35,646 nt of DNA from Candidatus Woesearchaeota archaeon (GTDB lineage Archaea; Nanobdellota; Nanobdellia; Pacearchaeales; GW2011-AR1), in NCBI GenBank assembly GCA_964483015.1, contig CAZAAB010000002.1, positions 1-35,646 on the forward strand. The letters run 5' to 3'. The notes under the pieces were generated by a model. The model did no database searches, was not told the origin of the DNA, and saw only the letters and a program-made list of their open reading frames with translations. Shown here in pieces: positions 9,717-29,921 of the stretch; positions within the stretch are counted from its first letter, which is position 1; each line of letters begins with the position of its first letter. A program made the translations under genes and the position numbers.

Positions 9717-10166
9717 ATGGTAAATTTTATAAAGTGTTCTTTAATTAGTGTTGATATGGCAACCGATAATAAATCAAAGCCATTTAGAGGACTCCCTAGT
9801 ATTAGACGAGAAGTAAGTCCCGAGTATGATGGTCCCTATAGAGACTTTCTTGTGGAGAGATATAAAGAACTGGAAGAGGTTAAAGAAGATTTTCTTAACA
9901 TGCGCAGAAGAGCTTGCAGAGACGAAATTTCATCTGAAGAAGTGAGAAAGACAGGGGGGGAATTATGGGTAAAAATTGGGGAATTAGATGACCAGGTTTC
10001 ATCAGAACTTAATCTTTCAGATGTATCTTATGGAGATCCAGAATGGCCATCTATGTTTGAATTACTCTCTTTTCATAAAAGTACAAGTTTTTTAAGAGCC
10101 TATTTATTCTGGTGTTTTTTAGGTTCTAATGAAATGGATTATTATATAAGACAGGCGAAGGAATAG
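9717..10166 (+). CDS. Orphan protein (149 aa as drawn; 136 aa from the ATG at 9756)
   Basis: A long ORF in an AT-rich genome, with more Arg/Glu/Trp and fewer Lys/Ile/Asn than its neighbours. No family recognised. Flanked by the 13-bp direct repeat. Confidence 0.55.
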   Translation: MVNFIKCSLISVDMATDNKSKPFRGLPSIRREVSPEYDGPYRDFLVERYKELEEVKEDFLNMRRRACRDEISSEEVRKTGGELWVKIGELDDQVSSELNLSDVSYGDPEWPSMFELLSFHKSTSFLRAYLFWCFLGSNEMDYYIRQAKE

Positions 10167-10243: not shown

Positions 10244-10819
10244 ATGCCAAACAGAAAGCAAAAAAGAGAAAAGGAAATATTTAGAATAAAACAAGAGATG
10301 TTAGATAGGTTAAAAGAGGCAGGAACAAAAGCAATAATAAGTATAAATTCTTTTGGGTTTCCTGAAGTTGATTTTCCAAGTTTAGAAGAGCTGGCTGAAG
10401 AATTTGCTGAAAAAAATAACTTATCATTAACAGATATGACTGATTATCATTTTCCAGTTGTTGCCCCTCTAAATGAGCCAAGAACTTATGATTCTGGGTT
10501 AATTTTACAGTTTAAAGAAGGGGTTAGTGTTTTGTCTATAAAAGGAAACTGGGAAGATGAGGGCAGATTAGAACCTACATATGGTGGAAGGCCAATACAA
10601 TACTGGTCAAAAGCATATGTAATGAGCGGGCTTGTAAAGGGGGAAGATGCTGAACTGGGAGCAAGAATATCTTATTCAAGACCAACAAGGCGGGAAGAGA
10701 GAACCAACACTTTAGGACGTACCCTGCTTGTAGATGTTCCTTTTGGAGAAGCAAGAAAAAGAATACATAGATATGATAATTCTTCTTTATGGTTTTTAAA
10801 AGAGCAAGATAGAGAATAA
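10244..10819 (+). CDS. Orphan 191-aa protein between rps7 and EF-2
   Basis: An uninterrupted ORF with a TTTTTAAA box about 30 nt upstream. No family recognised. Confidence 0.6.
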   Translation: MPNRKQKREKEIFRIKQEMLDRLKEAGTKAIISINSFGFPEVDFPSLEELAEEFAEKNNLSLTDMTDYHFPVVAPLNEPRTYDSGLILQFKEGVSVLSIKGNWEDEGRLEPTYGGRPIQYWSKAYVMSGLVKGEDAELGARISYSRPTRREERTNTLGRTLLVDVPFGEARKRIHRYDNSSLWFLKEQDRE

Positions 10820-10886: not shown

Positions 10887-13800
10887 ATGGCAGATAAGAC
10901 AACAGAAAAAGTAAAAAAATTGCAACATAAGCCAGAACAAATAAGGAATATAGCAATTGCTGCACATATAGATCACGGGAAGTGTATAGCACCTGAATCT
11001 CGGATTATGTTAGATGGAAATTTAGTTAAAGCTAAGGATTTATTTGAAACTGCTAAGAAAAAAGGCGAAAAAGTTTTTGAAGAGGATAACAAAATAATTT
11101 ATGATACTTCAAAACTTGATATTAAAACTTTTTCTTTAAATAAAAAAAATAAAAAATTAGAAAAAAGAAAAATAAGTCATGCATGGAAACTAAAGGGGGG
11201 CAATGTAATTAAATTAAAATTAAGAAATGGATTCCAAATTAAAACAACCCCGGAACACAAATACATTGTTTTTGAAAATTTTGATTTTAAAGAAAAGCAA
11301 GCTAAAAACTTAAAAATAGGTGACAGAGTTATATGCCCCAGAGAAATTGAAATTGATAAACAAATAAATATCAAAAGTTATATCTTGAAGAAATTGCAAA
11401 AGGAAAACTTCTATGTATTTTTAAATGAGGTTTTTGGAAATAAGTTAAAAAATTTAATTTTGGACTATGGGATAAGAAAAATAAACAAACAACTTGACTC
11501 TGACATAAAGTATAATTCTATATATCATGGTTTCTGGAAGAATAGATATCAAATTAAAGACCTAATTAAAATATCCCATATTTTTAATTTTAAATTAGAA
11601 AATATTTATAACGAGATTGACTTTATCTGTTATAGAACCGGAAAATGGAGAGATAAAAGCTCTCTACAAGTAAAGTTGCCAAAAACTCCTCGGCAATTTG
11701 AAAAGTTTTTTTATCTCTCTGGATTAATGTTTGGAGATGGTTCTGGGAAAAAATTTGTTGTAGGAAAAAAAGAACTTGGCAATATTTTTGAAAAAATTTG
11801 TGATGAATTTAATATAAGAGTCACTCACAGAGATTATGGTTACAGAACTAAAGAACTTATGACCAGTGAAACTTTATCAAGAATTTTAAAATGTGTTCTT
11901 GAATATCCTCTAAAAGATAAAAGTAGAAACATTAAAATCAGCAGTGTTTTATGGAAAATTGATAAGAGATATGTCAGCCAATTTATAAAAGGATATTTTG
12001 ATACTGATGGATGTGTAGAAAAATCTAGGAGAGCTATATCTTTAAGTTCTGCCAGTAAGAAAATGTTAAAAGGATTATCTTTACTTTTATTAAGAATAGG
12101 AATAGTCCCTAATTTACAAAAAAATAATATTTTTATATCTGGTCACTCCGCTAAAAGATTTCAGCAAGAAATTGGTTTTAATGTAAAAGATAAAACTGAG
12201 AAATTAGAGGATTTAGTCAAAAGAATTAGAGCTAGTTTAGTTATGGATTATGTTTTAGTTAATGGGAAAAGGGTCTCTAAAACAAGTGGGGGATTAAGTT
12301 TGCAACAAGAAAAACAGGTTTTACTTAGCAATTTACTTGAACAATTTGCATTTGTTGAAGTAAAAAAATTAGAGCAAGATGTAGAAGAGGAAGTTTATGA
12401 TTTTTCTGTTCCTAAGACAAGGAATTTTGTTTCTGAAGGCATTATTATTCACAACACCACATTTTCTGACAACTTACTGGCTGGAGCTGGAATGATGTCT
12501 GAAGAATTGGCAGGAAAACAATTAGTTATGGATTTTCATGATGATGAAAAAGAGAGAGGCATTACAATAGACTCTGCTAACGTGAGTATGGTTCATGATT
12601 TTGAAGGTAAAGATTATTTAATTAACTTAATAGATACCCCGGGGCATGTTGATTTTGGTGGTGATGTGACAAGAGCAATGAGAGCAGTTGATGGCAGTAT
12701 AGTTTTAGTATGTGCTTCAGAAGGTGTCATGCCTCAAACTGAAACAGTATTAAGGCAGGCATTAAGAGAAAGGGTAAAACCTATATTATTTATCAATAAG
12801 GTTGATAGGTTGATTAGGGAAGTTAAGCTGACTCCAGAACAGATGCAGAAAAGATTTAAGAAAATCATAAATCAGGTTAATGAACTTATACATAATATTG
12901 CTCCTAAAGAGTATAAAGATAAATGGCTTGTAAATGTTCAAGATGGTTCAGTAGCATTTGGTTCTGCTTTTCACAACTGGGCATTGTCTATACCATTTAT
13001 GAAAAAAAATAAAATAACTTTTAGTGATATTATTGAAGCATATAAGGCGGGGGGTGAAAAATATAAAGAGCTGGCAAAAAAAGCACCCTTGCATAGGGTT
13101 GTTCTAAATATGGTTACAAAGCACTTGCCAGACCCAAAACAAGCCCAACCATACAGGATTCCAAAAATCTGGCACGGGGATTTAGATTCAAAGCAGGGAA
13201 AATCCTTAACTGGATGTGATGAAAATGGGAAACCAGGTTTTATTTCAACTAAAATTGTTGTTGATAAGCATGCTGGCGAAGTAGCTGCAGGCAGGTTATT
13301 TTCAGGAACATTAAAACAGGGAGATGAAGTTTATATGAATCTTGCTAAAAGAAAAGTTAAACTGCAGCAAGTTTTCGTCTATAATGGGGCTAAGAAAATA
13401 CAGGTTGACAGTGTTGTTGCAGGCAATATTGTGGGTTTATCTGGATTGACTGATGTTCGGGCCGGGGAAACTGTTTCAGAAGAAAAAGTGACTCCTTTTG
13501 AAGAAATTAAACATATTTTTGAACCAGTAGTTACTAAAAGTATTGAAGCTAAAAAACCCTCTGACCTTCCTAATTTAATTGATATTTTAAGAACTGTAAA
13601 TAAAGAAGACCCTTCAATTCATATTGAGATAAATGAAGATACAGGAGAAAATTTAATATCAGGAATGGGAGAATTGCATTTAGAGGTTATTGAAAACAGG
13701 ATTAGAAGCGAGAAAGGTTTAGATGTTAAAACAGGACAGCCAATTGTTGTTTATAATGAAACTGTTACAAAAGAATCAAGAGAGTTTGACGGGAGAAGCC

Positions 13801-14528
13801 CGAACAAGCACAATATTTTTACAATAAAGGTTGAACCATTAGAAGAAAATATTTATAATGCTATTAAAGAGGGGGAGATATCAGAGGGGAGGATAAAGAA
13901 AAAAGACAAGCAGTTAAGCGAAAAATTAAGAGAAATAGATGTTGATAGAGATGAAGTCAGACAGTATCGTGATATTTATAAAGGAAATGTTTTCTTAGAC
14001 ACAACAAGAGGAGAGGTTTATATGGAAGAAGTTATTGAGTTAATTCTTGATGCTTTTGAACAAGTTGTTGATCAAGGGCCATTAGCAAGAGAGCCTTGTT
14101 CAAGATTAAAGGTAAGTTTAACTGATGTTAAGTTGCATGAAGATGCTATTCACAGGGGGCCTGCACAAGTATATCCTGCTGTGAGAAATGCTATACATGC
14201 AGCAATGAACGATGCCAAAGCTGTATTGTTTGAGCCTGTACAAATTCATAGAGTTGAAGCACCTTTAAAATATCTTTCAAATCTTACTAATCTAATTTCA
14301 AGCAAAAGAGGCGAATTGTTAGAGGTTAATCAGGAACAAACTGCAGTTATTAAAGCTAAAATACCTGTAGCAGAGATGATTGGCTGGTCAAGTGACTTAA
14401 GGTCAGCTACTGAAGGGAGAGGGGTTTCATCATTGATGGACCAGAAATTTGAAAAAGCACCTGCAGACCAACAGCAAGAGATTATTAAAAAGATTAGAGA
14501 CAGAAAAGGTTTAGAAGAAAATCAGTAG
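10887..14528 (+). CDS. fusA: Translation elongation factor 2 (aEF-2) precursor containing an intein
   Basis: The extein reads AHIDHGK|TTFSDNLLAGAG, DTPGHVDF, NKVDR, and EDAIHRGPAQ (diphthamide His region). It is 722 aa once the intein is removed. Confidence 0.95.
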   Translation: MADKTTEKVKKLQHKPEQIRNIAIAAHIDHGKCIAPESRIMLDGNLVKAKDLFETAKKKGEKVFEEDNKIIYDTSKLDIKTFSLNKKNKKLEKRKISHAWKLKGGNVIKLKLRNGFQIKTTPEHKYIVFENFDFKEKQAKNLKIGDRVICPREIEIDKQINIKSYILKKLQKENFYVFLNEVFGNKLKNLILDYGIRKINKQLDSDIKYNSIYHGFWKNRYQIKDLIKISHIFNFKLENIYNEIDFICYRTGKWRDKSSLQVKLPKTPRQFEKFFYLSGLMFGDGSGKKFVVGKKELGNIFEKICDEFNIRVTHRDYGYRTKELMTSETLSRILKCVLEYPLKDKSRNIKISSVLWKIDKRYVSQFIKGYFDTDGCVEKSRRAISLSSASKKMLKGLSLLLLRIGIVPNLQKNNIFISGHSAKRFQQEIGFNVKDKTEKLEDLVKRIRASLVMDYVLVNGKRVSKTSGGLSLQQEKQVLLSNLLEQFAFVEVKKLEQDVEEEVYDFSVPKTRNFVSEGIIIHNTTFSDNLLAGAGMMSEELAGKQLVMDFHDDEKERGITIDSANVSMVHDFEGKDYLINLIDTPGHVDFGGDVTRAMRAVDGSIVLVCASEGVMPQTETVLRQALRERVKPILFINKVDRLIREVKLTPEQMQKRFKKIINQVNELIHNIAPKEYKDKWLVNVQDGSVAFGSAFHNWALSIPFMKKNKITFSDIIEAYKAGGEKYKELAKKAPLHRVVLNMVTKHLPDPKQAQPYRIPKIWHGDLDSKQGKSLTGCDENGKPGFISTKIVVDKHAGEVAAGRLFSGTLKQGDEVYMNLAKRKVKLQQVFVYNGAKKIQVDSVVAGNIVGLSGLTDVRAGETVSEEKVTPFEEIKHIFEPVVTKSIEAKKPSDLPNLIDILRTVNKEDPSIHIEINEDTGENLISGMGELHLEVIENRIRSEKGLDVKTGQPIVVYNETVTKESREFDGRSPNKHNIFTIKVEPLEENIYNAIKEGEISEGRIKKKDKQLSEKLREIDVDRDEVRQYRDIYKGNVFLDTTRGEVYMEEVIELILDAFEQVVDQGPLAREPCSRLKVSLTDVKLHEDAIHRGPAQVYPAVRNAIHAAMNDAKAVLFEPVQIHRVEAPLKYLSNLTNLISSKRGELLEVNQEQTAVIKAKIPVAEMIGWSSDLRSATEGRGVSSLMDQKFEKAPADQQQEIIKKIRDRKGLEENQ
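10983..12455 (+). mobile_element. 491-aa intein with a LAGLIDADG homing-endonuclease domain in the EF-2 P-loop
   Basis: It starts with Cys (CIAPES) straight after GK and ends in HN followed by Thr. It has a TxxH block (TTPEH) and two LAGLIDADG motifs (LSGLMFGDGSG, IKGYFDTDGCV). By eye it is more AT-rich than the extein. Confidence 0.9.
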
Positions 14529-16278: not shown

Positions 16279-16803
16279 ATGGAAAGAACACATCTAATTC
16301 AGAGGCTGAAGAAGCCAAGAGGATCTGCAATTGCTTTTTCTTTTGGGGGAGGACTGCCTGCCGGAGGATTTTCTAAAGAAGCTCAAGAATTATTGAAAAA
16401 TGTCTGTACTTTTGATTATATGGGCTCTGCTGAATTTGAGTTTGGAGAAGTTCCAAGAGCTTTCTACAGAATAGCTGAATATTCTTCTAATAGAGAAGCT
16501 TCTTCAGGAGAGCTTTGCTTCCCAGATGAAGTATATTATATATGCGAAAAAGGGATTGAAAGAGAGGTAAAAGGAGTAATAGCACAACTAGTTAGAAATG
16601 AAGAAGAGTTACGGCTTAAGGAACCTTGTTATTTATGGGAAAGCATAACAGGAGAACCTGAATGGGCTTCAGACTATGTTGGATGGGTAGAATTAGATAA
16701 TGCTTTTATGTTTTTTACTGACAGAGAAATGTTCAACAAATTCCAAAATTTGTTTAGTATCAATTCTTCACAATCGCAAAAAACAAATCGTGAGGAAGCT
16801 TAA
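16279..16803 (+). CDS. Orphan 174-aa protein in the slot usually held by rps10
   Basis: An uninterrupted ORF with no recognised family. It is preceded by an 8-codon mini-ORF (16251-16277) with a strong GAGGTGAT Shine-Dalgarno sequence. Confidence 0.6.
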   Translation: MERTHLIQRLKKPRGSAIAFSFGGGLPAGGFSKEAQELLKNVCTFDYMGSAEFEFGEVPRAFYRIAEYSSNREASSGELCFPDEVYYICEKGIEREVKGVIAQLVRNEEELRLKEPCYLWESITGEPEWASDYVGWVELDNAFMFFTDREMFNKFQNLFSINSSQSQKTNREEA

Positions 16804-18510: not shown

Positions 18511-18954
18511 ATGGAAAAGAGGAATTTTATTATTTTTGTAATTATCTTAATTTTAGCAGCTTTAATAGTTTATTTTATTTTTTTCTATTATCAAAATTGT
18601 GAGACAAAAGGCTGCTTTGATAAATCTTTAGCAAAATGCAGTAAAGCAGAATATGTTAGTGAGACTGAACAAGCTTCATGGCTTTATAAGGTTAAAGGTA
18701 AAGAGGGGGATAACTGTAAGGTGGAGGTTAAACTGCTTCAGTTGAAGCAGGGCGATGAAAAATTAACAAGTCTTGAAGGGAAGAAGATGAAATGTTATCT
18801 TCCTTATGGTTTAGTAAGTAGGCCAGAAAGAAGCTTAGAAAGGTGTCATGGCTTGTTAAAAGAAGAAATGCAGAAGGTTATCATTAACAGGCTTCATTCT
18901 TATATTGTTGATAATCTTGGCGAAATAAGTGAAGGTTTAGAAGAGCCTTTATAA
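18511..18954 (+). CDS. Signal-anchored Cys-rich protein of unknown function
   Basis: 147 aa with an N-terminal TM helix (FIIFVIILILAALIVYFIFF) followed by a domain containing 8 Cys. Confidence 0.6.
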   Translation: MEKRNFIIFVIILILAALIVYFIFFYYQNCETKGCFDKSLAKCSKAEYVSETEQASWLYKVKGKEGDNCKVEVKLLQLKQGDEKLTSLEGKKMKCYLPYGLVSRPERSLERCHGLLKEEMQKVIINRLHSYIVDNLGEISEGLEEPL

Positions 18955-20867: not shown

Positions 20868-20999
20868 CCTATTTATACCTTTTGGTCGAAAATTAACTAC
20901 AAGTTGGTAGTGATGTGTTGTCACCACAAAGTTTATAAAGAAGCTTTTAGTTTTTAAACTAATTAAATAAATAAATTGACTAAGGGAGAAATAAAAAAA

Positions 21000-22205
21000 A
21001 TGATGAGGAAATTTTTAGTTTCCTTGATTGCTTTTTTAACTTTATTGACTTTGACTACTTTAGTTGTTGCTGATAACAGCTTGAATGTTAGTGATGTTCG
21101 TATTTTTGTAGATGACTTTGAAGTTGATGGTGTTAGTGGTGTTAGTGTTGAAGCTGGCGATGTTGTTCCGGTTGAAATTTTCTTTAAAGCTGGAAAAAAC
21201 GCTACTGATGTAGAAGTTTCTGCATGGGTAGAAGGTGAAAGAAGTGACGCAGCTGAAAAAGATTTTGCCGACTTAATTGAAGGCAAGAGCTATCACGCAA
21301 GACTTTCTTTGAGATTTCCTGAAGACCTTGATGAAACAGAAGAAGATTTGACTTTATTTGTAAGAATAGAGGCAGATGGAGGAAGTTTTGAAGACGAGTT
21401 TGATATCAATGTACAGAGAGAACCTGACAAGGCATCAATAATCTTTGCAGAAACTGTAAGAGAAGTTGAAGCAGGATCTTCATTTCCTGTTGATATTGTC
21501 TTAAAGAATCTGGGAAGGCATGAACTTGACGATGCAATTGTAAGGGTAAGCATTCCTGAACTTGGGATAAGCAGAAGAGCTTATTTCGGAGACTTAGTAG
21601 CTGTTGAAGATAATGGTGATAATGATGATGAAGATGCTAGAGAGAGAAGAATCTACTTAAGAATACCTTCAAATGTTGAATCTGGTGTTTATGATTTAGT
21701 AATTGAAGGTGGCAACGAAGATTCAGTTGACAGAATGGAAACAAGCATTTCTATTGCTGGAGCTGAAGGGGCAACAAAAGTTATTGTTCCTGTTAAAAGC
21801 AGAGAAATAGCTCAAGGAGATACTGAAACCTATGAAGTTATAATTGTTAACAAGGGAAACAGTGTTGGTGTTTATGAAGTAATGCCACAAACTAGCGAGA
21901 ACATAGTTGTTAGTGTTGATAATCCTGTAGTTACTGTGCCTGCTGGAGAAAGCAAGACAGTTAACATTCGAGTTAAAGGTCTTGAAGAAGGAACACACTC
22001 TTTTGGAGTTGATGTGACAGCAGACAACAATCTAGTTGAAAGTGTAGCTCTAACTGGTTCTGTAACTGGAGAAACACAAGTTAGTGATATAGCAATCTTG
22101 ACAATTGTTTTAGCAATAATTTTTGTAGTATTGCTAATTGTCTTAATTGTCTTGTTAACAAGGAAACCTACAGCAGAAGAAGAACTTGAAGAAAGTTACT
22201 ACTAA
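21000..22205 (+). CDS. Acidic cell-surface protein with an N-terminal signal/TM helix, beta-sandwich-like repeats and a C-terminal TM anchor
   Basis: ATG at 21000 after AGGGAG; the track start at 20976 is a TTG. It has repeated motifs typical of CARDB/COG1361-like S-layer domains (AGxxxPVxIxxKNxG...) and the C-terminal helix ILTIVLAIIFVVLLIVLIVLL. Confidence 0.7.
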   Translation: MMRKFLVSLIAFLTLLTLTTLVVADNSLNVSDVRIFVDDFEVDGVSGVSVEAGDVVPVEIFFKAGKNATDVEVSAWVEGERSDAAEKDFADLIEGKSYHARLSLRFPEDLDETEEDLTLFVRIEADGGSFEDEFDINVQREPDKASIIFAETVREVEAGSSFPVDIVLKNLGRHELDDAIVRVSIPELGISRRAYFGDLVAVEDNGDNDDEDARERRIYLRIPSNVESGVYDLVIEGGNEDSVDRMETSISIAGAEGATKVIVPVKSREIAQGDTETYEVIIVNKGNSVGVYEVMPQTSENIVVSVDNPVVTVPAGESKTVNIRVKGLEEGTHSFGVDVTADNNLVESVALTGSVTGETQVSDIAILTIVLAIIFVVLLIVLIVLLTRKPTAEEELEESYY

Positions 22206-22253: not shown

Positions 22254-25200
22254 TCAAACCTCTAATGTTACTATTTTGCTAACACCTTTTTGCATTGATA
22301 CCCCGTATAATACTGATGATTCTGTAATAAGGGCATCATTATGAGTAATGATTATGTACTGGCCTGTTTTCATATGCTTTTTAATTAATGCTGCAAGTCT
22401 TTCGCTATTCCTTTTATCTAAAGCAGCATCAACTTCATCAAATATGTAAAAGCAGTAAGGCTTATATTCCTGAATTGCAAATAATAAAGAAAGGGCTACA
22501 AGTGTTTTTTCTCCCCCTGATAAAGAAGATATGTCAAAATACTTGCCCCTGCCTATCTTAATCTCAATATCAAGACCAGCTTCAAAAATTTCGTTTTTAT
22601 TTTCAGGCCTTAAAAAAGCTTCTCCCTTTTTTGACAGCTGTCTAAAGTTTCTGTTAAAAAGCTCGTTTACTGCTTTTAGGGTTTTCATAAAGACTTTTTT
22701 CTTTTTTTTGTCAATCTTTTCAATAACTTTCAATATCTCTTCTTTTTCTTTCATCAGCTTTTCAGCTTTTTCTTCAACTTTATCATACTCTTTTTTTACC
22801 CTGCTATAAACTTCCAAAGACTTAAGGTTTACTGCCCCCATCTTCTCAATTCTATTCTGTGTTTTTTCTAACTTACTTTCTAATGTGTGCACTGGCTGGT
22901 TTATTACCTTAACATTTTCATACGGCTTAAAGTCTGTTTCAAGGTTTTCTAACTCTGCGTCAATTCTTGCTTTTTCTATTTTTAAATCATTTTCTTTTTC
23001 TTCTATCCTGCTAATATTGTTTTGTATTTCTAATATAAATGAATTTTTTTCATGTATTTGTTTTTGCAAAGAATTTTTTTCTTCATTTAGATTTTTAAAA
23101 ATTTCTTCAAGTTCAGACTGTTTTTCTTCTTTTTCTTCCAACTGTTCTCTTTTTTCCTGCTCTTCATCTTCCAACTCTTCAAGTTCTTCTTCTAAATCTT
23201 CTTGCTCCCTAAAACTCTGCTTTTGCTCTATTTTTAATTTTTCTAAATCTCTTTCTTTTGACTCTTGCTCTGCATTAACTGTTTCCTTTGTTCTTGAAGA
23301 AATTTCCTGAATTTCTAAAAAAATCTTGTCATAATCTTCTTCAATGTTTTTTAGTTTTGAAAGCTTATTTTTTATCTCTTTCTGCTTTTTACTTAAATCT
23401 TGTATCTGTTTTTCTATTTCTTTTTTCTCATTTTCTATCTTTTTTATGGCTTCTTTTTTTTCTTCAACCCATTTTAAGTTTACTAAGTCTTTTTCTGCTT
23501 TTTCTCTTTCCTGCTGTATTTTTTTCATTTTCTCTTTTAAGTTTGAAATTTCTTCTTTAGTTTTTTCAGAATCTAATTTTTCTAACTTTTCTTTATAGTT
23601 TGAAATTTTTTCATCACAATCGGTTTTAACTTGTTCTATATGCTTGGAGGTTATCCTGCTTTTACATAGGGGGCATATATCTAAATTTTCTACTTTTTCC
23701 TTCACTTCTTGTAATCTCGCTATTTCTGATTTATAGATAGAAGAATTGTTTTCTTGCCCTCTTATTAATTCTTGTTTATTTTCTACTGTATTTCTTGTCT
23801 CTTTTTCTTTTTTTTCCAGTTCTTTGACCTGTTTTTCTGCTTTTTCAATTTCTTTATACTTAAGCTTATCAGAAAGATTATCAACCTGGTTAAATAAGAA
23901 CGAGGATTCGTTTTGTTTCTCATTTAATAAATTCTCCCTATCTTGTTTTTTATCTTTAATACTCTTTAATTTTTCTTTTAAATTATAAGATTTCTTTTTC
24001 TTAGCTTCTGCCTGCTCTAACTGCTTTTTCTTTTCATTTAATTCTTCTTGCTTGCCTGTCTGCGGTTTTTCTTTTCTTAATCTTTTGATCTCTTTTTCTA
24101 ATTTTTCTTCCTCTTTTTTTCTTTTTTCCCTCCTTTCCTTAATTTCTTCTAATCTTGACTGGTTGTTTTCTTCCCTTACTTCTATTCCTACTAGGTCTGC
24201 CCTTAAATTAGAAATTTGAGATTGTAGATTTTCTTGTCTTACCCCTGTCTTTCCTTCTATATCTTTATCAATTTTGTTAATTCTTTTTTCAAACTGCTTT
24301 ATCTCTTGCCTTGCTTTTTTTTCCTGATTTCTTTTTTCCTGCTTTTTATCTTCTTTTTCTTCTAACTCCTGGATAAAATTGGAAAGGTTCTTTTTTTTCC
24401 TGCTTATCTTTCTCTTTAATATGCTTGCCTTATACCTTTTTACTCTTTTCTTGAATTTTTTAAATTTTAAAGCCTGCCTTCTTTCTTTTTCCAGATTTTT
24501 TAAATAACTTCTTCTTTCTCTTAATGTTGCTGAAACCTGCTTAAATTTTTCATCTGTTTTTTCTAACTCGTTTAAACTTTTCTTTTTTCTGTCTTCATAA
24601 ATGCTTATCCCGGCAACCTCTTCTATAATCTCTCTTCTTTCTTCTGGCTTCATTTTCACTATCTCCTGGATTTCTCCCTGTAAAACTATATTAAAGCCGT
24701 AAGGGTCTATGCCTGCCTGAGCAAGCAGGTCTATTATTTCCTGTCTTGTTTTTGTTTCTTTATTTATTTTATATGTGCTTTGCCCATTTTTTCTGACAAT
24801 TCTTTGTATAGAAACCTCTTTACTGTCTACTGAAAAAGTTTTATCTTTATTGCTGAAAACTAAATTTACACTTGCCTCTTTTTCTGGCTTTCTCCCTTTT
24901 GCCCCTGCAAAAATTAGATTTGAAGCTCTTTCTGCCCTCATACTCTTAATTGACATTCTACCTAAGACAAAACATAAAGCATCTACTATGTTACTGTTAT
25001 GAACAAAAATATTATTTGCTATAAAGTTATGGTGCAATTCCACACATAAATCATATACCCATTTTTCTCCCGGGATTTCTTCTATTTTAATTATCTCATC
25101 CCAAAAGATGTCTGAATTTGCTAATGTGTTGAGTTTTTCTTTTGATTCTGAATGTCCATTAAAAACTTTTTCGCATAATAATTTCAAGCCATCTCTTGAA

Positions 25201-26705
25201 GGAAGGCATTGGTTATAACAATACGCATCCAAAATAGGAAATTGTTTTTTAATTTTTTTGACGTTTATAGAAAATTCTTTGGCGGTTTTTTTAATTAGTT
25301 GATTTGCTTCTATCAAATCCACATTTGTATTTGCTTTTTTCATTATCAACTTTTTTATTTTGTTATTTTTTTTATTGTGGACAAGTCTAATCTTTTCATT
25401 AAATCTTAAGAAATTGTTTACTCCGTAAACAACTATTGTTTTATATTCTGCTGAAAATCCTGATTTTGCTATTCCTTTTTTAACATCTCTGGTTGTAAAT
25501 GTTATTCCTAATCTTAAAAAGCAAGTTTCTATGCCTCTTGCCAATTCTTCACTTTTTGTTGTTATTTCTATACTTTTATTGGAAATATATCCGTCTCCAC
25601 AAAATAAACCATTCAGTAAGTTAGATACTTCTCTATCTGAAGAATGTTTTAGAATTGCGTTTGAAATTCTTTTTTTCCTTGTATCAGAACCCATCCCTAA
25701 TTTTTTTAAAATTTTTCTTAAGGGTTCTGAATAAAAAATAACATCCCAGCAACCTGTTTTATATTCTCTTACCAATGGTTTTTTTCGAAACAATTTTTTA
25801 ACCAAATAAACATAATCATCAACTACTTCTCTGGTTCCGTTTGTAAACCATATTTGACTCGAAGAAGCAAGTCTCCCATCAGAAAGTAAGTAGCCAAAAA
25901 ACCGGGAGAAGTCAGGAGAATTTTTAAAAGAAAATTTTGTTTTTTTTCCGTTTCTAATAATTGTATCTAATAATCCTATTATTTCTTTATTAGAAAGACT
26001 GGCAAATTTTAATATCTTTATTAACGATGCTAAATTTATTGATTGCTTATCTAAAAGTCCTTTTATAGTGTAATGGGAGATTCCTATTTCGCTTGCTAAT
26101 TTTTTCCATGTCCTTTCTTTTTTGAGTTGTTTTAAAATATTTCTGAATTCCTCTCTGTATGGAATATATATCTTGTCGTCTTGCTTAATTTTTTCAATTA
26201 ATTCGCAGAAATTTTTATTTTCAGGTTCAAAACCTACTTTTCTTGGAACTGCTACTCTTGTTCCTTTTTCTAACTCTTCTGATTTTAGTGCTTTTATTTC
26301 CCCGTCTTTTAATGTGAATAAAGGGTGGTATTTTGTCACTTTTATTTCTTTTCCAGATCTTGTTTTAATTTTAAGAATTTTTTTAGGAGATTTCCTTTTA
26401 ACAAATTTTTTGATTGGTTTTTTACTTGTTTTTAATGTGTTAAAATCCAGACATTCTATTTTTGTCCCGTCTCCTTCAATTATAAATCCATCTTCTGTTT
26501 TTTTTGCCTTCCCTAATCTTTTGTTAACTACTTTGTCTATTCTCTCTGCTCTTCCATCAGATAAATAGATTTTGGTGTCTCCAGTTACACATTTACCTGA
26601 ACCATTTGGTCCAACTACCACATTCATACTGTTTACAAAAGGGATTTCGGTTTCTTTTGGAAAGCTTTTAAATCCCTTCATTACCAATTTTTTGATATGG
26701 GCCAT
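22254..26705 (-). CDS. smc: SMC-family ATPase precursor (intein-containing) with a hinge-less coiled coil and a central CxxC
   Basis: SMC head motifs: KGFKSF, GPNGSGK|SNIVDALCFVLG, QGEIQEIV..EERREIIEEVAGI, LSGGEKTLVALSLLFAIQ, FYIFDEVDAALD, YGVSM.KGVSKIV. Between the head halves there is a long K/E-rich coiled coil, with CPLC at 23664-23675. Confidence 0.9.
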   Translation of the reverse strand: MAHIKKLVMKGFKSFPKETEIPFVNSMNVVVGPNGSGKCVTGDTKIYLSDGRAERIDKVVNKRLGKAKKTEDGFIIEGDGTKIECLDFNTLKTSKKPIKKFVKRKSPKKILKIKTRSGKEIKVTKYHPLFTLKDGEIKALKSEELEKGTRVAVPRKVGFEPENKNFCELIEKIKQDDKIYIPYREEFRNILKQLKKERTWKKLASEIGISHYTIKGLLDKQSINLASLIKILKFASLSNKEIIGLLDTIIRNGKKTKFSFKNSPDFSRFFGYLLSDGRLASSSQIWFTNGTREVVDDYVYLVKKLFRKKPLVREYKTGCWDVIFYSEPLRKILKKLGMGSDTRKKRISNAILKHSSDREVSNLLNGLFCGDGYISNKSIEITTKSEELARGIETCFLRLGITFTTRDVKKGIAKSGFSAEYKTIVVYGVNNFLRFNEKIRLVHNKKNNKIKKLIMKKANTNVDLIEANQLIKKTAKEFSINVKKIKKQFPILDAYCYNQCLPSRDGLKLLCEKVFNGHSESKEKLNTLANSDIFWDEIIKIEEIPGEKWVYDLCVELHHNFIANNIFVHNSNIVDALCFVLGRMSIKSMRAERASNLIFAGAKGRKPEKEASVNLVFSNKDKTFSVDSKEVSIQRIVRKNGQSTYKINKETKTRQEIIDLLAQAGIDPYGFNIVLQGEIQEIVKMKPEERREIIEEVAGISIYEDRKKKSLNELEKTDEKFKQVSATLRERRSYLKNLEKERRQALKFKKFKKRVKRYKASILKRKISRKKKNLSNFIQELEEKEDKKQEKRNQEKKARQEIKQFEKRINKIDKDIEGKTGVRQENLQSQISNLRADLVGIEVREENNQSRLEEIKERREKRKKEEEKLEKEIKRLRKEKPQTGKQEELNEKKKQLEQAEAKKKKSYNLKEKLKSIKDKKQDRENLLNEKQNESSFLFNQVDNLSDKLKYKEIEKAEKQVKELEKKEKETRNTVENKQELIRGQENNSSIYKSEIARLQEVKEKVENLDICPLCKSRITSKHIEQVKTDCDEKISNYKEKLEKLDSEKTKEEISNLKEKMKKIQQEREKAEKDLVNLKWVEEKKEAIKKIENEKKEIEKQIQDLSKKQKEIKNKLSKLKNIEEDYDKIFLEIQEISSRTKETVNAEQESKERDLEKLKIEQKQSFREQEDLEEELEELEDEEQEKREQLEEKEEKQSELEEIFKNLNEEKNSLQKQIHEKNSFILEIQNNISRIEEKENDLKIEKARIDAELENLETDFKPYENVKVINQPVHTLESKLEKTQNRIEKMGAVNLKSLEVYSRVKKEYDKVEEKAEKLMKEKEEILKVIEKIDKKKKKVFMKTLKAVNELFNRNFRQLSKKGEAFLRPENKNEIFEAGLDIEIKIGRGKYFDISSLSGGEKTLVALSLLFAIQEYKPYCFYIFDEVDAALDKRNSERLAALIKKHMKTGQYIIITHNDALITESSVLYGVSMQKGVSKIVTLEV
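24996..26591 (-). mobile_element. 532-aa intein with a LAGLIDADG homing-endonuclease domain in the SMC Walker A loop
   Basis: It starts with Cys (CVTGDT) after GSGK and ends in VHN followed by Ser. It has a TxxH block (TKYH) and LAGLIDADG motifs FFGYLLSDGRL and LLNGLFCGDGYI. Confidence 0.9.
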
Positions 26706-26860
26706 AACTCTTTTTTACTTGATTTTTTCTTATTTTACTAACTGAAAAGCCTTATTTAAAGTTTATTTTGATTAAAATAAATTAAACAATGAAATTTTGA
26801 AAACAAAAAGCTTATAAAGTTTAAAATCTTTAGTTGTAATAATTGGTAAAGTTATCTTTG

Positions 26861-26921
26861 CCAGGGGGCAGGAGAAACAATCTTGGGTCCTTCGGGATTT
26901 TTGGTTGTCTTCGGATGCCCC
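26861..26921. ncRNA. GC-rich structured island, a candidate small RNA of unknown class
   Basis: GGGGCA (26865-26870) pairs with TGCCCC (26916-21), enclosing a GTCC-TTCG-GGAT hairpin and a second TTCG loop. It stands out in an AT-rich 383-bp spacer. Strand and class are undetermined. Confidence 0.25.
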
Positions 26922-27088
26922 TAAATTGCTATTTCTTATACAGCCACAAAAATTTTTAAGTTAAATAAATTGTTTTAATTATGGCAGGGGGAAGTTTCAT
27001 CAAAAAGTTGGGATATTAAAGAAATATCAGAATTAAACTATTTGCTAACAGTCAAATTAATAAGTGAAGAATCTGGATTCTTCATTTT

Positions 27089-27760
27089 TTAATATTCGCC
27101 TAATTTCTTTTGCTCTTTTTCCATCTTTGCCTGCTTCCAAGAAACCCATGATTTTCTAAAAATTCCCTCTTTTTTATACCTGGTTACGTGGTCTTTTAGA
27201 AATTTTCTTGTTATCGGGTCTGATGGGTAGCCAGAACCAAAATCTTTTCCTATTTTATCTTTTATCTTTTTAATCTCTTTTTCTCTTGTTGATTTTGCTA
27301 TTATTGAAGCAGCTGAACAGGCAATATGATTTAAGTCAGCTTTATGTTCAATATTAAAGATTAAGTTGTCTTTTTTATTTACATATGTTTTCAAAACTTC
27401 CCCCCACTTTTTTGTATTTGGGCTTGGACAGTCAACAATCACATTAATTTTATCTAAACCCCTATTTATTTTGTTTATTATTCTTGCTGACTTGACAGCT
27501 TCAATTCTGTTTAAGTTAAACCCTATGCTTATCTTGCCATCAATCTCGGTTGGGGAAACTATTGCTATATGGTATGAAAAAGCCTTCTTCCTTATTATTT
27601 CTGCTAAAATCTCTCTTTTATCTTTATTTAATAATTTCGAGTCTTTAACACCTAATTTTTTCAGCTCTTTTTCAAGATTTTTATCTATCAAACAGCCGGC
27701 TAAAATCATTGGGCCTATTGTAGGCCCCCTCCCGCTGTCATCAATGCCTAATTTTAACAT
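27089..27760 (-). CDS. rnhB: Ribonuclease HII
   Basis: 223 aa with LGIDDSGRGPTIGPMILAG, DSK and ACSAASIIAK, the RNase HII catalytic motifs. Confidence 0.9.
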   Translation of the reverse strand: MLKLGIDDSGRGPTIGPMILAGCLIDKNLEKELKKLGVKDSKLLNKDKREILAEIIRKKAFSYHIAIVSPTEIDGKISIGFNLNRIEAVKSARIINKINRGLDKINVIVDCPSPNTKKWGEVLKTYVNKKDNLIFNIEHKADLNHIACSAASIIAKSTREKEIKKIKDKIGKDFGSGYPSDPITRKFLKDHVTRYKKEGIFRKSWVSWKQAKMEKEQKKLGEY

Positions 27761-28883: not shown

Positions 28884-29083
28884 AAAACCCGTTTAAATTG
28901 CTTGGGAGCTATGTTGGTTTATTCCTTGGTTTAATAGCAAGTTATTTTTCTTTTGCTATTGTCTTAAGTTTAGCTGAGTCGGGCAAGTTTATATTAATCG
29001 CTTTATTGATCCCATTTATCCCGATAATTCTGGGCTTTTTGCTTGGCTGGTTAATACATTTATTGATTTTAAAGTTAAAATGA
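28880..29083 (+). CDS. Small two-TM membrane protein (67 aa)
   Basis: Two hydrophobic helices. Its stop overlaps the ATG of the HAD gene (ATGA). Confidence 0.45.
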   Translation: MKNPFKLLGSYVGLFLGLIASYFSFAIVLSLAESGKFILIALLIPFIPIILGFLLGWLIHLLILKLK

Positions 29084-29921
29084 AGAACATAATCATTCCT
29101 GATGCAGAAGAATTAAAGAAAAAAAAACAACGAATAAAAAAGCAAGGTAAAAAAAATCTTCATGTTTTAAGTGATTTTGACAGAACCTTAACTAAAGCTT
29201 TTGTTAATAATGAAAAAGTTCCGTCTGCTATTTCATCTATTAGACGAAATGCCTATCTAGGAAAAGATTACGCTAAAAAAGCTTATCAATTGTTTGATAA
29301 ATATCATCCGATAGAAATTAACCCCTCAATTAAGTTAGAAGAAAAGAAAGAAAAAATGAAGGAGTGGTTGTCAGAACATTATAAGTTGTTAAAAGAAAAA
29401 GGCATGAATAAAGAGGTTATTGATAAGTTAGACAAGATTATAAGCTTCAATTTCGACCCGGAGTATTAAAGTTTCTTGATCTGTTGCATAAAAATAATAT
29501 TCCCTTAATCATTTTATCCTCTTCTGGAATAGGCAATTGTATTGAAAAATTTTTTAAAGCAAAGAACAAGATGAATAATCACATATATATCATTTCTAAC
29601 TTTATTGAATTTGATAAAAAAGGAAAAATGACTGGCATTAAAGGCAAAATTATCCATCCTTTTAATAAAAATGAGGATAGTTTAAGGCCTAAAATTTACA
29701 AAAAAATAAAAAAAAGGAAAAATGTCATATTGCTTGGAGACAGTTTAGGAGATTTAAGTATGATTGAGAGTTTTAATTATGATAATTTAATTGAGATTGT
29801 TTTTTTGAATTGTACGGTTGATGAATTATTAGATGAATATAAAAAGAATTTTGATGTTGTTCTTTTAAATGATGCTGATATGAATTATGTAAATGATTTA
29901 CTGAAAGAAATGGTGGAATAA
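29080..29921 (+). pseudogene. HAD-superfamily pyrimidine 5'-nucleotidase (UMPH-1-like) split by a frameshift near 29427-29467
   Basis: Part 1 carries HAD motif I (VLSDFDRTLT). The second frame reads RPGVLKFLDLLHKNNIPLIILSSSGIGN...LLGDSLGDLSM (motifs II-IV) and is open from 29427. The two frames overlap by about 40 nt. Confidence 0.65.

What the first reader, a model, noticed from the sequence alone, without database searches (positions are those of the whole stretch)
22254..26705. SMC-type ATPase head joined by a hinge-less coiled coil with a CxxC at the exact midpoint (Rad50-style zinc hook?)
The head motifs are SMC-like rather than Rad50-like: KGFKSF, GPNGSGK|SNIVDALCFVLG, QGEIQEIV..EERREIIEEVAGI, FYIFDEVDAALD and YGVSM.KGVSKIV. 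Rad50 heads normally carry DEP-type Walker B contexts. Without the 532-aa intein the protein is 951 aa, about 200 aa shorter than typical SMC. Between the head halves I can read only K/E-rich heptad-like sequence. I see no Gly-rich globular hinge. There is a single CPLC (23664-23675), at Cys1011/1014 of the precursor, which is 479/482 of the 951 mature residues. That is where an antiparallel coiled coil must fold back. A CxxC at the coiled-coil apex is the signature of the Rad50/SbcC zinc hook. No mre11, scpA or scpB gene is adjacent. An SMC head combined with a hook-type dimerisation apex would be an unusual chromosome-organising architecture.
Basis: partly seen in the sequence, partly recalled or inferred. 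Interest (0 to 1): 0.75.

Follow-up and report, generated by a model that had tools for sequence, protein, structure and literature searches.

The report
SMC protein with Rad50-type zinc hook
This archaeal gene encodes a true SMC chromosome-organising ATPase whose usual hinge has been replaced by a Rad50-like zinc hook, a natural version of a domain swap so far reported only as an engineered construct, and hundreds of Nanoarchaeota species share it.

Summary
ORF 22254-26705 (-) encodes a 1483-aa precursor. A 532-aa LAGLIDADG intein splits the P-loop, and the spliced protein is 951 aa with CPLC at residues 479-482.

- **Head:** it is SMC, not Rad50. NCBIfam SMC scores 542 bits against 119 for Rad50. 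The predicted head superposes on the Pyrococcus Smc head at TM 0.92.
- **Hinge:** there is none. About 235 positions of the SMC model are replaced by about 20 residues. AlphaFold gives one continuous helical hairpin that turns at CPLC.
- **Conservation:** CP[LIVM]C is invariant in 120 homologues (47-58% identical) and in 74 genome loci from Pacearchaeota, Woesearchaeota and Nanoarchaeota. Arm lengths are fixed to within about ±2 residues.
- **Hook identity:** the apex matches Pfam Rad50_zn_hook in 51 of 55 members. Its best structural match is the P. furiosus Rad50 hook (TM 0.83). It is clearly homologous to the hook of the same lineage's Mre11-linked Rad50 (hhalign 99.2%, P 3e-19).

Best reading: an SMC orthologue that acquired a Rad50 hook and dimerises through zinc. 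Zinc binding, a kleisin partner and absence of a second SMC are not shown. I found no published report of this architecture.

The parts
22254..26705 (-). Complete gene for the SMC precursor (1483 aa plus stop). The spliced protein is 951 aa.
   Evidence: Single ORF. The start aligns with the family consensus MPYIKKLVMKGFKSF. NCBIfam SMC_prok_A scores 542 bits.
26592..26705 (-). N-extein, aa 1-38, ending in the Walker A motif GPNGSGK.
   Evidence: Pfam SMC_N match.
24996..26591 (-). 532-aa intein with a LAGLIDADG homing endonuclease, inserted straight after the P-loop lysine. It has Cys1, TKYH block B, a terminal HN and Ser+1.
   Evidence: Pfam Intein_splicing 8.7e-29 and LAGLIDADG_3 6.2e-18. 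Motifs located. Four relatives carry an intein at the same site.
24606..24995 (-). Rest of the N-terminal head half (mature aa 39-168). It carries SNIVDALCFVLG, SIKSMRAERASNLIFAG, the Q-loop VLQGEIQEIV and EERREIIEEVAGI.
   Evidence: phmmer hit to Pyrococcus Smc heads at 2.5e-107. Foldseek TM 0.92-0.93 to 4i99.
23691..24605 (-). N-terminal coiled-coil strand (mature aa 169-473). It runs collinear with positions 169-472 of the SMC model TIGR02169.
23601..23705 (-). Rad50-like hook module (mature aa 469-503): VKEKVENLDICPLCKSRITSKHIEQVKTDCDEKIS.
   Evidence: Pfam Rad50_zn_hook in 51/55 family members. The top PDB profile hits are Rad50 hooks. hhalign gives 99.2% to the Nanoarchaeotal Rad50 hook.
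23664..23675 (-). CPLC (mature Cys479 and Cys482), the proposed zinc ligands at the coiled-coil apex.
   Evidence: Invariant C-P-x-C in 120/120 and 74/74 relatives. It lies in the apex loop 474-487 of both models.
22635..23648 (-). C-terminal coiled-coil strand (mature aa 488-825). It runs collinear with TIGR02169 from position 708 onward.
22257..22634 (-). C-terminal head half (mature aa 826-951). It carries the signature LSGGEK, Walker B/D-loop FYIFDEVDAALD and H-loop IIITHN.

Best explanation
The gene encodes the SMC (condensin-type Smc) ATPase of a DPANN archaeon of the Nanoarchaeota, Pacearchaeota or Woesearchaeota group. The globular hinge has been replaced by a Rad50-type zinc hook.

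Proposed sequence of events:
1. The intein splices out and restores the P-loop GPNGSGK-SN.
2. The 951-aa chain folds back on itself at residues 474-487. This gives an antiparallel coiled-coil arm of roughly 45 nm, with the ABC ATPase head at one end and CPLC at the other.
3. Two chains are joined at their apices by one zinc ion, held by the four cysteines (2 x Cys479/Cys482), as in Rad50. This supplies the constitutive dimerisation that the hinge normally gives.
4. ATP-driven engagement and release of the two SMC heads then works on DNA as in Smc-ScpAB. A kleisin encoded elsewhere probably closes the ring.

The hook was most likely acquired by recombination with the lineage's own rad50 gene in an ancestor of this clade.

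Shown here: gene structure, SMC identity of the head and arms, absence of a hinge, invariance of the hook, and its homology to Rad50 hooks.

Inferred: zinc binding, homodimerisation, the kleisin partner, and the cellular role.
For: **Head is SMC.**
- NCBIfam SMC_prok_A and SMC_prok_B score 542 and 540 bits. Rad50 scores 119 and ASRP 122.
- phmmer against PDB gives Pyrococcus Smc heads at 2.5e-107 and Rad50 heads at 1e-13.
- Foldseek of the AlphaFold model gives TM 0.92-0.93 to the P. furiosus Smc head 4i99.
- My own head HMMs split every hook-bearing protein cleanly into SMC-type or Rad50-type.

**No hinge.**
- No PF06470 hit.
- The N arm, aa 171-470, maps to TIGR02169 positions 169-472. Residues from 491 on map to position 708 onward. 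About 235 model positions are therefore replaced by about 20 residues.
- AlphaFold (pLDDT 80) is helical from 169 to 825, with the apex loop at 474-487.

**Hook.**
- CP[LIVM]C is invariant.
- T487 and H490 are at least 90% conserved, giving CPLCKSKIT.EH. P. furiosus Rad50 has CPVCGRELTDEH.
- 51/55 members hit Pfam Rad50_zn_hook, best 6.7e-8.
- The family profile's top three PDB hits are the Rad50 hooks 1l8d, 6zff and 5gox.
- The hook model (pLDDT 93.7) has 1l8d as its best structural match out of 350,542 chains, at TM 0.83-0.84 and rmsd 2.3-2.5.
- A search of 1.84 billion representatives finds the family itself first. Next come Nanoarchaeotal Rad50s, hit exactly at their hooks, with E down to 8e-12.
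- hhalign of the SMC hook against that Rad50 hook gives 99.2%, P 2.6e-19, score 99. Hook-against-plain-coiled-coil controls score 17-25.

**Selection.**
- At least 592 GTDB species genomes hold a relative, and the best 80 are all of this type.
- The distances from the hook to Walker A and to the signature motif are fixed within 438-442 and 379-384 aa in 169 of 171 sequences.

**Feasibility.** An engineered B. subtilis Smc carrying the P. furiosus Rad50 hook supports normal growth (PMC5344682).
Against: - Nothing here shows zinc binding or dimerisation. All of that is inferred from sequence and predicted structure.
- The window's own hook segment is only a weak Pfam match (E 0.66). The strong evidence is at family level.
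- The Foldseek E-value for the hook is weak (0.011), because helical hairpins carry little information.
- No ScpA or ScpB was found in the window or within 10 kb in 80 related loci. A kleisin partner is therefore assumed, not seen.
- I could not examine a whole genome. A second, hinge-bearing SMC in these organisms is not excluded.
- The protein misses NCBIfam's SMC equivalog cut-off (542 < 729).
- One coiled-coil control pair in hhalign reached score 47.7. Part of any arm similarity is therefore compositional or reflects ancient SMC/Rad50 homology.
- Co-occurrence of this SMC and Rad50 in one genome was not demonstrated.
Confidence: 0.8

Rival explanations
1. It is a separate SMC-related paralogue family, comparable to the archaea-specific ASRP/ClsN/Sph proteins that also carry a zinc hook. 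On this view it coexists with a canonical hinge-bearing SMC and has a different role. It would not be the lineage's SMC orthologue with a swapped dimerisation module.
For: ASRPs are SMC-like ATPases with a zinc hook (PMC9389158). The protein falls below NCBIfam's SMC equivalog cut-off. No whole genome could be checked for a second SMC.
Against: - The ASRP model scores only 122 bits against a cut-off of 300, while the SMC models score 540-542.
- Both arms are collinear with the SMC model up to the edges of the hinge. The score shortfall is therefore explained by the missing hinge.
- Length is 951 aa against about 590 for the ASRP model.
- The hook-profile search found only one SMC-headed hook family. 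Every other full-length protein it retrieved was Rad50-type, apart from one weakly scoring sequence.
- NCBI annotators name the family 'chromosome segregation SMC family protein'.
Confidence: 0.1
2. It is an ordinary Rad50/SbcC whose head merely looks SMC-like.
For: A CxxC sits at the coiled-coil apex and matches the Rad50 hook family.
Against: - Rad50 models score 119 bits or less, against cut-offs of 700-1087.
- Walker B is FDEVDAALD, whereas the lineage's Rad50 has DEPTD in 119/120.
- The true Rad50 of this lineage is a distinct protein of about 685 or 820 aa. The five contexts with an adjacent Metallophos (Mre11) gene were all of the ~685-aa class. The one ~820-aa context examined had no adjacent Metallophos gene.
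- No Mre11 gene lies near this gene in the window or in 80 loci.
- My head HMMs give 450-530 bits for SMC and 0 for Rad50.
Confidence: 0.02
3. The conserved CPxC apex is real but does not make Rad50-like zinc-bridged homodimers. It might form a disulfide or redox switch, a metal site completed by another protein, or a heterotypic hook-hook link to the lineage's Rad50, whose hook motif is nearly identical.
For: Only two cysteines per chain are invariant, so some partner must complete the site. The SMC and Rad50 hooks of this lineage share KLD[IV]CPLCK.
Against: - The whole 95-residue module, not just the cysteines, is homologous to Rad50 hooks. Those hooks are established zinc-mediated homodimerisation elements (1l8d; PMC6969161).
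- An SMC needs a constitutive dimerisation site, and this protein has no other candidate.
- The SMC hooks are mostly CPLC, while the Rad50 hooks are split between CPTC and CPLC. The two hooks therefore evolve independently.
- SMC arms of about 310-340 aa and Rad50 arms of about 200 aa would be badly mismatched in a heterodimer.
Confidence: 0.06
4. It is an assembly chimera, a pseudogene or a chance motif.
For: The window comes from a metagenome-like sequence, and the gene is interrupted by an intein.
Against: - The same 951-956-aa architecture appears on hundreds of independent contigs from many projects.
- The ORF is intact and the intein has all its splicing motifs.
- Head motifs and the hook are under strong conservation.
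Confidence: 0.01

Closest known systems
Prokaryotic/archaeal Smc of the Smc-ScpA(B) complex (TIGR02169/TIGR02168; P. furiosus Smc head 4i99)
   Same: - The ABC head carries all the SMC-specific motifs.
- The head-proximal 'neck' is conserved.
- Arms of about 310-340 residues run collinear with the SMC model, close to the 341-aa mode reported for prokaryotic Smc (PMC5344682).
- Head structure matches at TM 0.92.
   Different: The SMC hinge domain (PF06470) is entirely absent and replaced by a hook of about 20 residues. The protein is about 215 aa shorter. No kleisin gene was found nearby.
Rad50/SbcC zinc hook (PF04423; PDB 1l8d, 6zff, 5gox), especially the ~685-aa Mre11-linked and ~820-aa Rad50s of Nanoarchaeia/Woesearchaeota
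   Same: - CP-x-C sits at the apex of an antiparallel coiled coil.
- The extended motif KLD-x-CPLCK...[ST].[ED]H is shared.
- Profile, profile-profile and predicted-fold matches all agree.
   Different: The head is not Rad50-type: FDEVD instead of DEPTD, and only 119 bits on the Rad50 models. There is no adjacent mre11. The arms are 100-140 residues longer than in the lineage's Rad50.
Engineered B. subtilis Smc(Zh): Smc with its hinge replaced by the P. furiosus Rad50 zinc hook (Burmann et al. 2017, PMC5344682)
   Same: The architecture is the same: SMC head and arms plus a Rad50 hook. The junctions fall close to those of the engineered constructs. In SMC_prok_B coordinates they lie at about 475 and 701, and the constructs include 1-480/691-1186 and 1-463/708-1186. 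The chimera supported normal growth.
   Different: This one is natural, ancient, and fixed in a whole archaeal clade. Its hook resembles the resident lineage's Rad50 rather than a foreign one.
Archaea-specific SMC-related proteins (ASRP: Sulfolobus ClsN, Halobacterium Sph1/2; NF045487)
   Same: SMC-superfamily ATPases with a coiled coil and a zinc-hook motif where a hinge would be (PMC9389158).
   Different: The ASRP model scores 122 bits against a cut-off of 300. ASRPs are shorter and form a family distinct from SMC, whereas this protein's head and arms are SMC proper.
'Hinge-less' SMC homologues of marine Actinobacteria (PMC12153180)
   Same: A natural SMC-clade protein that lacks the hinge domain.
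   Different: Those proteins are reported to lack the CXXC zinc-hook motif and are bacterial. Here a conserved Rad50-type hook occupies the apex.
S. pombe Rad50 with the MukB hinge (Tatebe et al. 2020, PMC6969161)
   Same: It shows that hook and hinge are functionally interchangeable dimerisation modules.
   Different: It is the reciprocal swap (a hinge placed into Rad50) and is engineered.

Membership tests
SMC (prokaryotic Smc, TIGR02169/TIGR02168, Pfam SMC_N + SMC_hinge) | ABC-type head split between the N and C termini, with Walker A, Q-loop, signature LSGGE, Walker B/D-loop and H-loop | tested here: met
   Motifs located. Pfam SMC_N at 8.4e-50.
SMC (prokaryotic Smc, TIGR02169/TIGR02168, Pfam SMC_N + SMC_hinge) | Head closer to SMC than to Rad50, RecN, ASRP or SbcC | tested here: met
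   542 bits against 122 or less. PDB phmmer 2.5e-107 against 1e-13. Foldseek TM 0.92-0.93 to 4i99. No tree was built.
SMC (prokaryotic Smc, TIGR02169/TIGR02168, Pfam SMC_N + SMC_hinge) | Long antiparallel coiled-coil arms collinear with the family model | tested here: met
   aa 171-470 map to model positions 169-472, and aa 491-950 map to 708-1164. AlphaFold is helical from 169 to 825.
SMC (prokaryotic Smc, TIGR02169/TIGR02168, Pfam SMC_N + SMC_hinge) | Globular hinge dimerisation domain (PF06470) between the arms | tested here: not met
   No hit at E<=1 on the protein or on 55 central segments. About 235 model positions are missing. No globular fold is predicted.
SMC (prokaryotic Smc, TIGR02169/TIGR02168, Pfam SMC_N + SMC_hinge) | Score above NCBIfam's curated equivalog cut-off | tested here: not met
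   542.3 against 729.4 for TIGR02169, and 540.5 against 567.35 for TIGR02168. The shortfall corresponds to the missing hinge.
SMC (prokaryotic Smc, TIGR02169/TIGR02168, Pfam SMC_N + SMC_hinge) | Kleisin partner (ScpA) in the genome | not testable with these tools
   None was found in the window or within 10 kb in 80 loci. Whole genomes could not be read. In several archaeal orders scpA is not adjacent to smc (PMC7055376).
Rad50/SbcC | CxxC zinc hook at the apex of the coiled coil (PF04423) | tested here: met
   51/55 members hit PF04423. The top PDB hits are 1l8d, 6zff and 5gox. Foldseek rank 1-2 is 1l8d. Zinc binding itself was not tested.
Rad50/SbcC | Rad50-type head (DEP Walker B context; score on the Rad50 models) | tested here: not met
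   119 bits or less against cut-offs of 700-1087. FDEVD here against DEPTD in the lineage's Rad50. My Rad50 head HMM scores 0.
Rad50/SbcC | Partner nuclease gene mre11/sbcD adjacent | tested here: not met
   No Metallophos gene lies in the window neighbourhood or in 80 loci. The lineage's ~685-aa Rad50 does have one.
ASRP (archaea-specific SMC-related proteins, NF045487) | Score above the family cut-off | tested here: not met
   122.5 bits against 300.
Intein with LAGLIDADG homing endonuclease | Splicing domain with Cys1, TxxH, a terminal HN and a +1 nucleophile, plus an endonuclease domain | tested here: met
   Pfam hits at 8.7e-29 and 6.2e-18. C39, TKYH, HN570 and S571 located, and a LAGLIDADG-like motif (FFGYLLSDG) was found by pattern search. 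Splicing activity was not tested.

The most novel reading that the evidence does not exclude
A whole class-level clade of DPANN archaea (Pacearchaeota, Woesearchaeota and other Nanoarchaeota) uses, as its only SMC, a natural SMC-Rad50 chimera. In an ancestor, the hinge was replaced by the hook of the cell's own Rad50. These cells then organise and segregate their chromosomes with a hinge-less SMC. This would be natural proof that the hinge's DNA-binding and gating roles are dispensable for core SMC function. It would also show that arm geometry, held here to within about ±2 residues, is what matters.
Probability: 0.5. Interest if true: 0.82.

Novelty: new variant of a known kind. Interest (0 to 1): 0.72.

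Why it matters
The hinge is regarded as a defining and functionally important part of every SMC protein, with roles in dimerisation, DNA binding and possibly as a DNA gate.

Laboratory chimeras showed that a Rad50 hook can stand in for it in B. subtilis. Here evolution has made the same swap and kept it across hundreds of species, with arm length under very tight constraint.

That provides:
- A natural test case for which parts of an SMC motor are essential.
- A simpler, smaller SMC for structural and single-molecule work.
- A clear example of module exchange between the two great branches of the SMC superfamily.

There is also a practical consequence. Surveys that collect SMCs through their hinge, or through full-length equivalog cut-offs, will miss or misname this family.

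Tried and rejected
- **Window contig look-up:** the window's own protein is not on record in the contig collection. Context had to come from relatives.
- **Kleisin search:** Pfam scans of 20 window ORFs, clustering of 1384 neighbouring ORFs from 81 loci, and a crude ScpA N-terminal pattern search all found nothing. These only cover about 10 kb around smc, so they say nothing about the rest of the genome.
- **Same-genome test for Rad50 and this SMC:** No Rad50 lies within 10 kb of smc in 80 loci.
- **Whole-protein Pfam:** it does not report the hook for the window protein. Only the excised segment does (E 0.66), along with 51/55 family members.
- **Head phylogeny:** Classification rests on profile scores and structure.
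- **Ongoing gene conversion between the SMC and Rad50 hooks:** considered and rejected. The middle residues of the CPxC differ in frequency between the two families.
- **Literature:** seven searches found no report of a natural SMC with a zinc hook. The library does not cover all journals.

Full report
**1. What is in the sequence**

Positions 22254-26705 on the minus strand form one ORF of 1483 aa. Straight after the Walker A motif GPNGSGK, the chain is interrupted by a 532-aa insert. The insert runs from residue 39 to 570 (nt 24996-26591), starts with Cys, and ends ...FVHN followed by Ser.

Pfam identifies the insert as an intein splicing domain (8.7e-29) with a LAGLIDADG endonuclease (6.2e-18). 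It has the TKYH block and a LAGLIDADG-like motif. Removing it restores GPNGSGK-SNIVDALCFVLG and gives a 951-aa protein.

That protein has five cysteines and a single CxxC. This is CPLC at residues 479-482 (precursor 1011-1014, nt 23664-23675), the midpoint of the chain.

**2. The head is SMC, not Rad50**

- On the spliced protein, Pfam reports SMC_N at 8.4e-50.
- NCBIfam gives 542 and 540 bits for the two prokaryotic SMC equivalog models. The best Rad50 model gives 119, the archaea-specific SMC-related proteins give 122, and RecN and SbcC give less.
- Against all PDB sequences, the best hits are Pyrococcus and Bacillus Smc head constructs (2.5e-107 to 1e-66). Rad50 heads reach only 1e-13.
- An AlphaFold2 model built on 82 family sequences (mean pLDDT 80) superposes on the P. 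furiosus Smc head of entry 4i99 with target-normalised TM 0.92-0.93.
- The Walker B context is FYIFDEVDAALD.

**3. There is no hinge**

No SMC_hinge match appears at E<=1, either on the whole protein or on 55 central segments of family members.

Scanning the two halves separately shows how they map onto TIGR02169. Residues 171-470 align collinearly with model positions 169-472. Residues 491-950 align with positions 708-1164. The arms are therefore SMC arms, and about 235 model positions (the hinge and its immediate flanks) are replaced by about 20 residues.

The AlphaFold model is helical from 169 to 825, with only short breaks at 203-218, 343-353, 415-420, 606-612, 731-739 and 756-767. The apex loop at 474-487 contains CPLC. 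A separate model of residues 430-530 is a confident helical hairpin (pLDDT 93.7) with the loop at the same place.

**4. The apex is a Rad50-type hook**

The protein database holds a large family of 945-956-aa proteins that are 47-58% identical to this one. The sources that name them call them 'chromosome segregation SMC family protein' from Nanoarchaeota or Pacearchaeota.

- All 120 listed members have CP[LIV]C at about position 480.
- In an 82-sequence alignment, C479, P480 and C482 are invariant. D477, I486, T487 and H490 are at least 90% conserved, while the arms around them are poorly conserved.
- The consensus is ...IKkQVsKLDICPLCKSKIT.EH... The P. furiosus Rad50 hook reads ...KGKCPVCGRELTDEH....
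- Scanned one by one, 51 of 55 hook segments hit Pfam Rad50_zn_hook at E<=1, best 6.7e-8. The window's own segment is weak at E 0.66.
- A profile of the segments, searched against all PDB sequences, has as its three best hits the three Rad50 hook structures 1l8d (8.3e-4), 6zff and 5gox.
- Foldseek of the hook model against 350,542 PDB chains puts 1l8d first and second (TM 0.83-0.84, rmsd 2.3-2.5 A over 100 columns). The E-value is modest (0.011), as expected for a helical hairpin.

**5. Distribution and constraint**

The best 80 are all full-length matches of this type. By record title they are 34 Woesearchaeota, 21 Nanoarchaeota, 14 Pacearchaeota, 7 'archaeon' and 4 others, one of which is a probably mis-binned 'Bacillota' MAG. 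All 74 complete ORFs among them carry CP[LIVM]C.

In 171 distinct sequences, the distance from the Walker A lysine to the first cysteine is 438-442 residues in 169 of them. The distance from the second cysteine to LSGGE is 379-384 in 169. Arm sequences are otherwise free to drift, so this is a strong length constraint.

It fits the finding that Smc arms work only at particular lengths (PMC5344682). The mean head-to-apex spacing here is about 327 residues. That lies near the 341-aa mode reported for prokaryotic Smc.

**6. Where the hook came from**

I searched 1.84 billion representative proteins with the hook-region profile. The search gave 306 hits at E<=1e-3 and 59 at E<=1e-10.

After the family itself, the next hits are proteins of about 685 aa and about 820 aa, matched exactly at their midpoints. 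NCBIfam classifies them as Rad50. Their named members come from Candidatus Nanoarchaeia and Woesearchaeota.

In the five genomic contexts of the ~685-aa class that I examined, a Metallophos (Mre11) gene lies adjacent or close upstream. It overlaps the Rad50 start by 4-11 nt in four of the five. In the fifth, one gene lies between them. The one ~820-aa context examined had no adjacent Metallophos gene. The lineage therefore has a normal Mre11-Rad50 as well.

Head HMMs built from the two families split the full-length hook-bearing representatives cleanly. They are either SMC-type with the hook near 480 of about 950 aa, or Rad50-type. One 830-aa sequence scored too weakly to call.

The Rad50 hook of this lineage reads ...IK..ISKLD[VI]CP[LT]CKQ.VS.[ED]H....I...E..KI... 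This is very like the SMC hook. Profile-profile comparison of the two hook regions gives probability 99.2%, P 2.6e-19 and score 99 over 95 columns. Comparing either hook with ordinary coiled-coil segments of the other family gives scores of 17-25. One coiled-coil against coiled-coil control reached 47.7.

The SMC hook profile scores about 59-61 bits on Nanoarchaeotal Rad50s and 22.6 bits on P. furiosus Rad50. The simplest reading is a single ancient transfer of the hook module from rad50 into smc within this lineage. Ongoing gene conversion is unlikely, because the middle residues of CPxC differ in frequency between the families.

**7. Surroundings**

The window is a core informational region. 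It holds rpoH, rpoB, rpoA, ribosomal proteins, EF-2, EF-1alpha, a DnaG-type Toprim protein, an AP endonuclease, then smc and RNase HII, followed by glycolytic genes. No ScpA, ScpB or Mre11 domain is present.

In 80 related loci the conserved neighbours are as follows.

| Neighbour | Loci out of 80 |
|---|---|
| RNase HII | 70 |
| Ig-like membrane protein | 57 |
| Toprim protein | 42 |
| AP endonuclease | 37 |

No kleisin-like gene recurs. This is not informative by itself, because scpA lies away from smc in several archaeal orders (PMC7055376).

**8. How it most likely works**

- Shown: the gene is intact; the head and arms are SMC; the hinge is absent; the apex is an invariant hook homologous to Rad50 hooks.
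- Established elsewhere: Rad50 hooks join two chains through one zinc ion bound by four cysteines. A Rad50 hook can replace the Smc hinge in B. subtilis with normal growth (PMC5344682). The reverse swap works in fission yeast Rad50 (PMC6969161).
- Inferred: after intein splicing the protein forms zinc-bridged homodimers with arms of about 45 nm. It then acts as the lineage's condensin-type SMC, probably with a kleisin encoded elsewhere. The strong conservation of the head-proximal coiled coil (invariant Y171, K175, E181, L196, R199, N205, E209, A213, N761, E766, Y768, Y775 and E788) is consistent with a retained partner-binding neck, but it does not prove one.

**9. Comparison with what is known**

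The protein fails one defining feature of SMC (the hinge) and one of Rad50 (the head). It is best described as an SMC with a Rad50-type dimerisation module.

- The ASRP/ClsN/Sph proteins also combine an SMC-like ATPase with a hook, but they are a different and shorter family. Their describing paper lists only Rad50 and ASRP as hook-bearing families.
- A 2025 study described hinge-less SMCs in marine Actinobacteria and stated that they lack CXXC.
- A broad survey of archaeal SMCs treated DPANN sequences as canonical.
- The large arm-length survey collected SMCs through their hinges, so it would have missed this family.
- Seven full-text searches found no description of a natural SMC with a zinc hook. 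The library is incomplete, so this is absence of evidence only.

**10. Limits**

- No experiment supports zinc binding or dimerisation.
- No whole genome could be inspected, so a second SMC, the kleisin, and same-genome coexistence with Rad50 remain open.
- Head classification rests on profile and structure scores rather than a tree.
- Coiled-coil composition inflates some similarity scores, which is why controls were run.

Noticed in passing
window 10887-14528 (+); intein about 10983-12455: The EF-2 gene (1213 aa) also carries an intein with a LAGLIDADG domain (aa 33-523, C...HN|T). Like the SMC intein, it is inserted straight after the P-loop lysine (AHIDHGK|C). The two inteins are only about 25% identical (blastp 8e-12).
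   Followed up: partly
window 1210-4485 and 4530-7997 (+); compare L096 14683-21706: RNA polymerase subunits B and A are each a single fused ORF here (1091 and 1155 aa). A related Nanoarchaeote has split B''/B' and A'/A'' genes. A fused subunit A is unusual for an archaeon.
   Followed up: partly
window 29080-29469 and 29484-29921 (+): A pyrimidine 5'-nucleotidase (UMPH-1) is split into two adjacent ORFs that match profile positions 2-83 and 102-245. This could be a frameshift, a stop codon, a pseudogene or a sequencing error.
   Followed up: no
proteins P0042, P0061, P0069, P0095 (relatives of the SMC): Four other family members carry an intein of about 520 aa at the same P-loop site. Theirs begin with Ser rather than Cys, which suggests an intein allele that moves within this SMC family.
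   Followed up: partly
L082-L086, L093, L095, L096 (Rad50 loci of Nanoarchaeia): The lineage's Rad50 is unusually short and comes in two sharp length classes, about 681-690 aa and about 815-830 aa. In the five ~685-aa contexts examined, mre11 lies adjacent or close upstream. In two species this mre11-rad50 pair lies 2.4-3.7 kb upstream of rpoH-rpoB, the gene cluster that leads to smc in the window.
   Followed up: partly
window 26706-27760 (-) and 80 related loci: RNase HII sits directly upstream of smc on the same strand in 70 of 80 related loci, with a 383-nt gap in the window. An Ig-like membrane protein of about 409 aa (window 20976-22205) sits downstream in 57 of 80. The reason for this conserved linkage is unknown.
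   Followed up: partly
L010 (DATKUW010000087.1) and L018 (JBDRJG010000005.1): One hook-SMC contig is labelled Bacillota bacterium and one Candidatus Iainarchaeum. The first is probably a mis-binned archaeal contig. The second could be a mislabel or a sign that the family reaches another DPANN phylum.
   Followed up: no
window 9717-10166, 10244-10819, 16279-16803, 18511-18954 (+): Four ORFs of 147-191 aa in the informational gene cluster have no Pfam match at E<=0.01.
   Followed up: no
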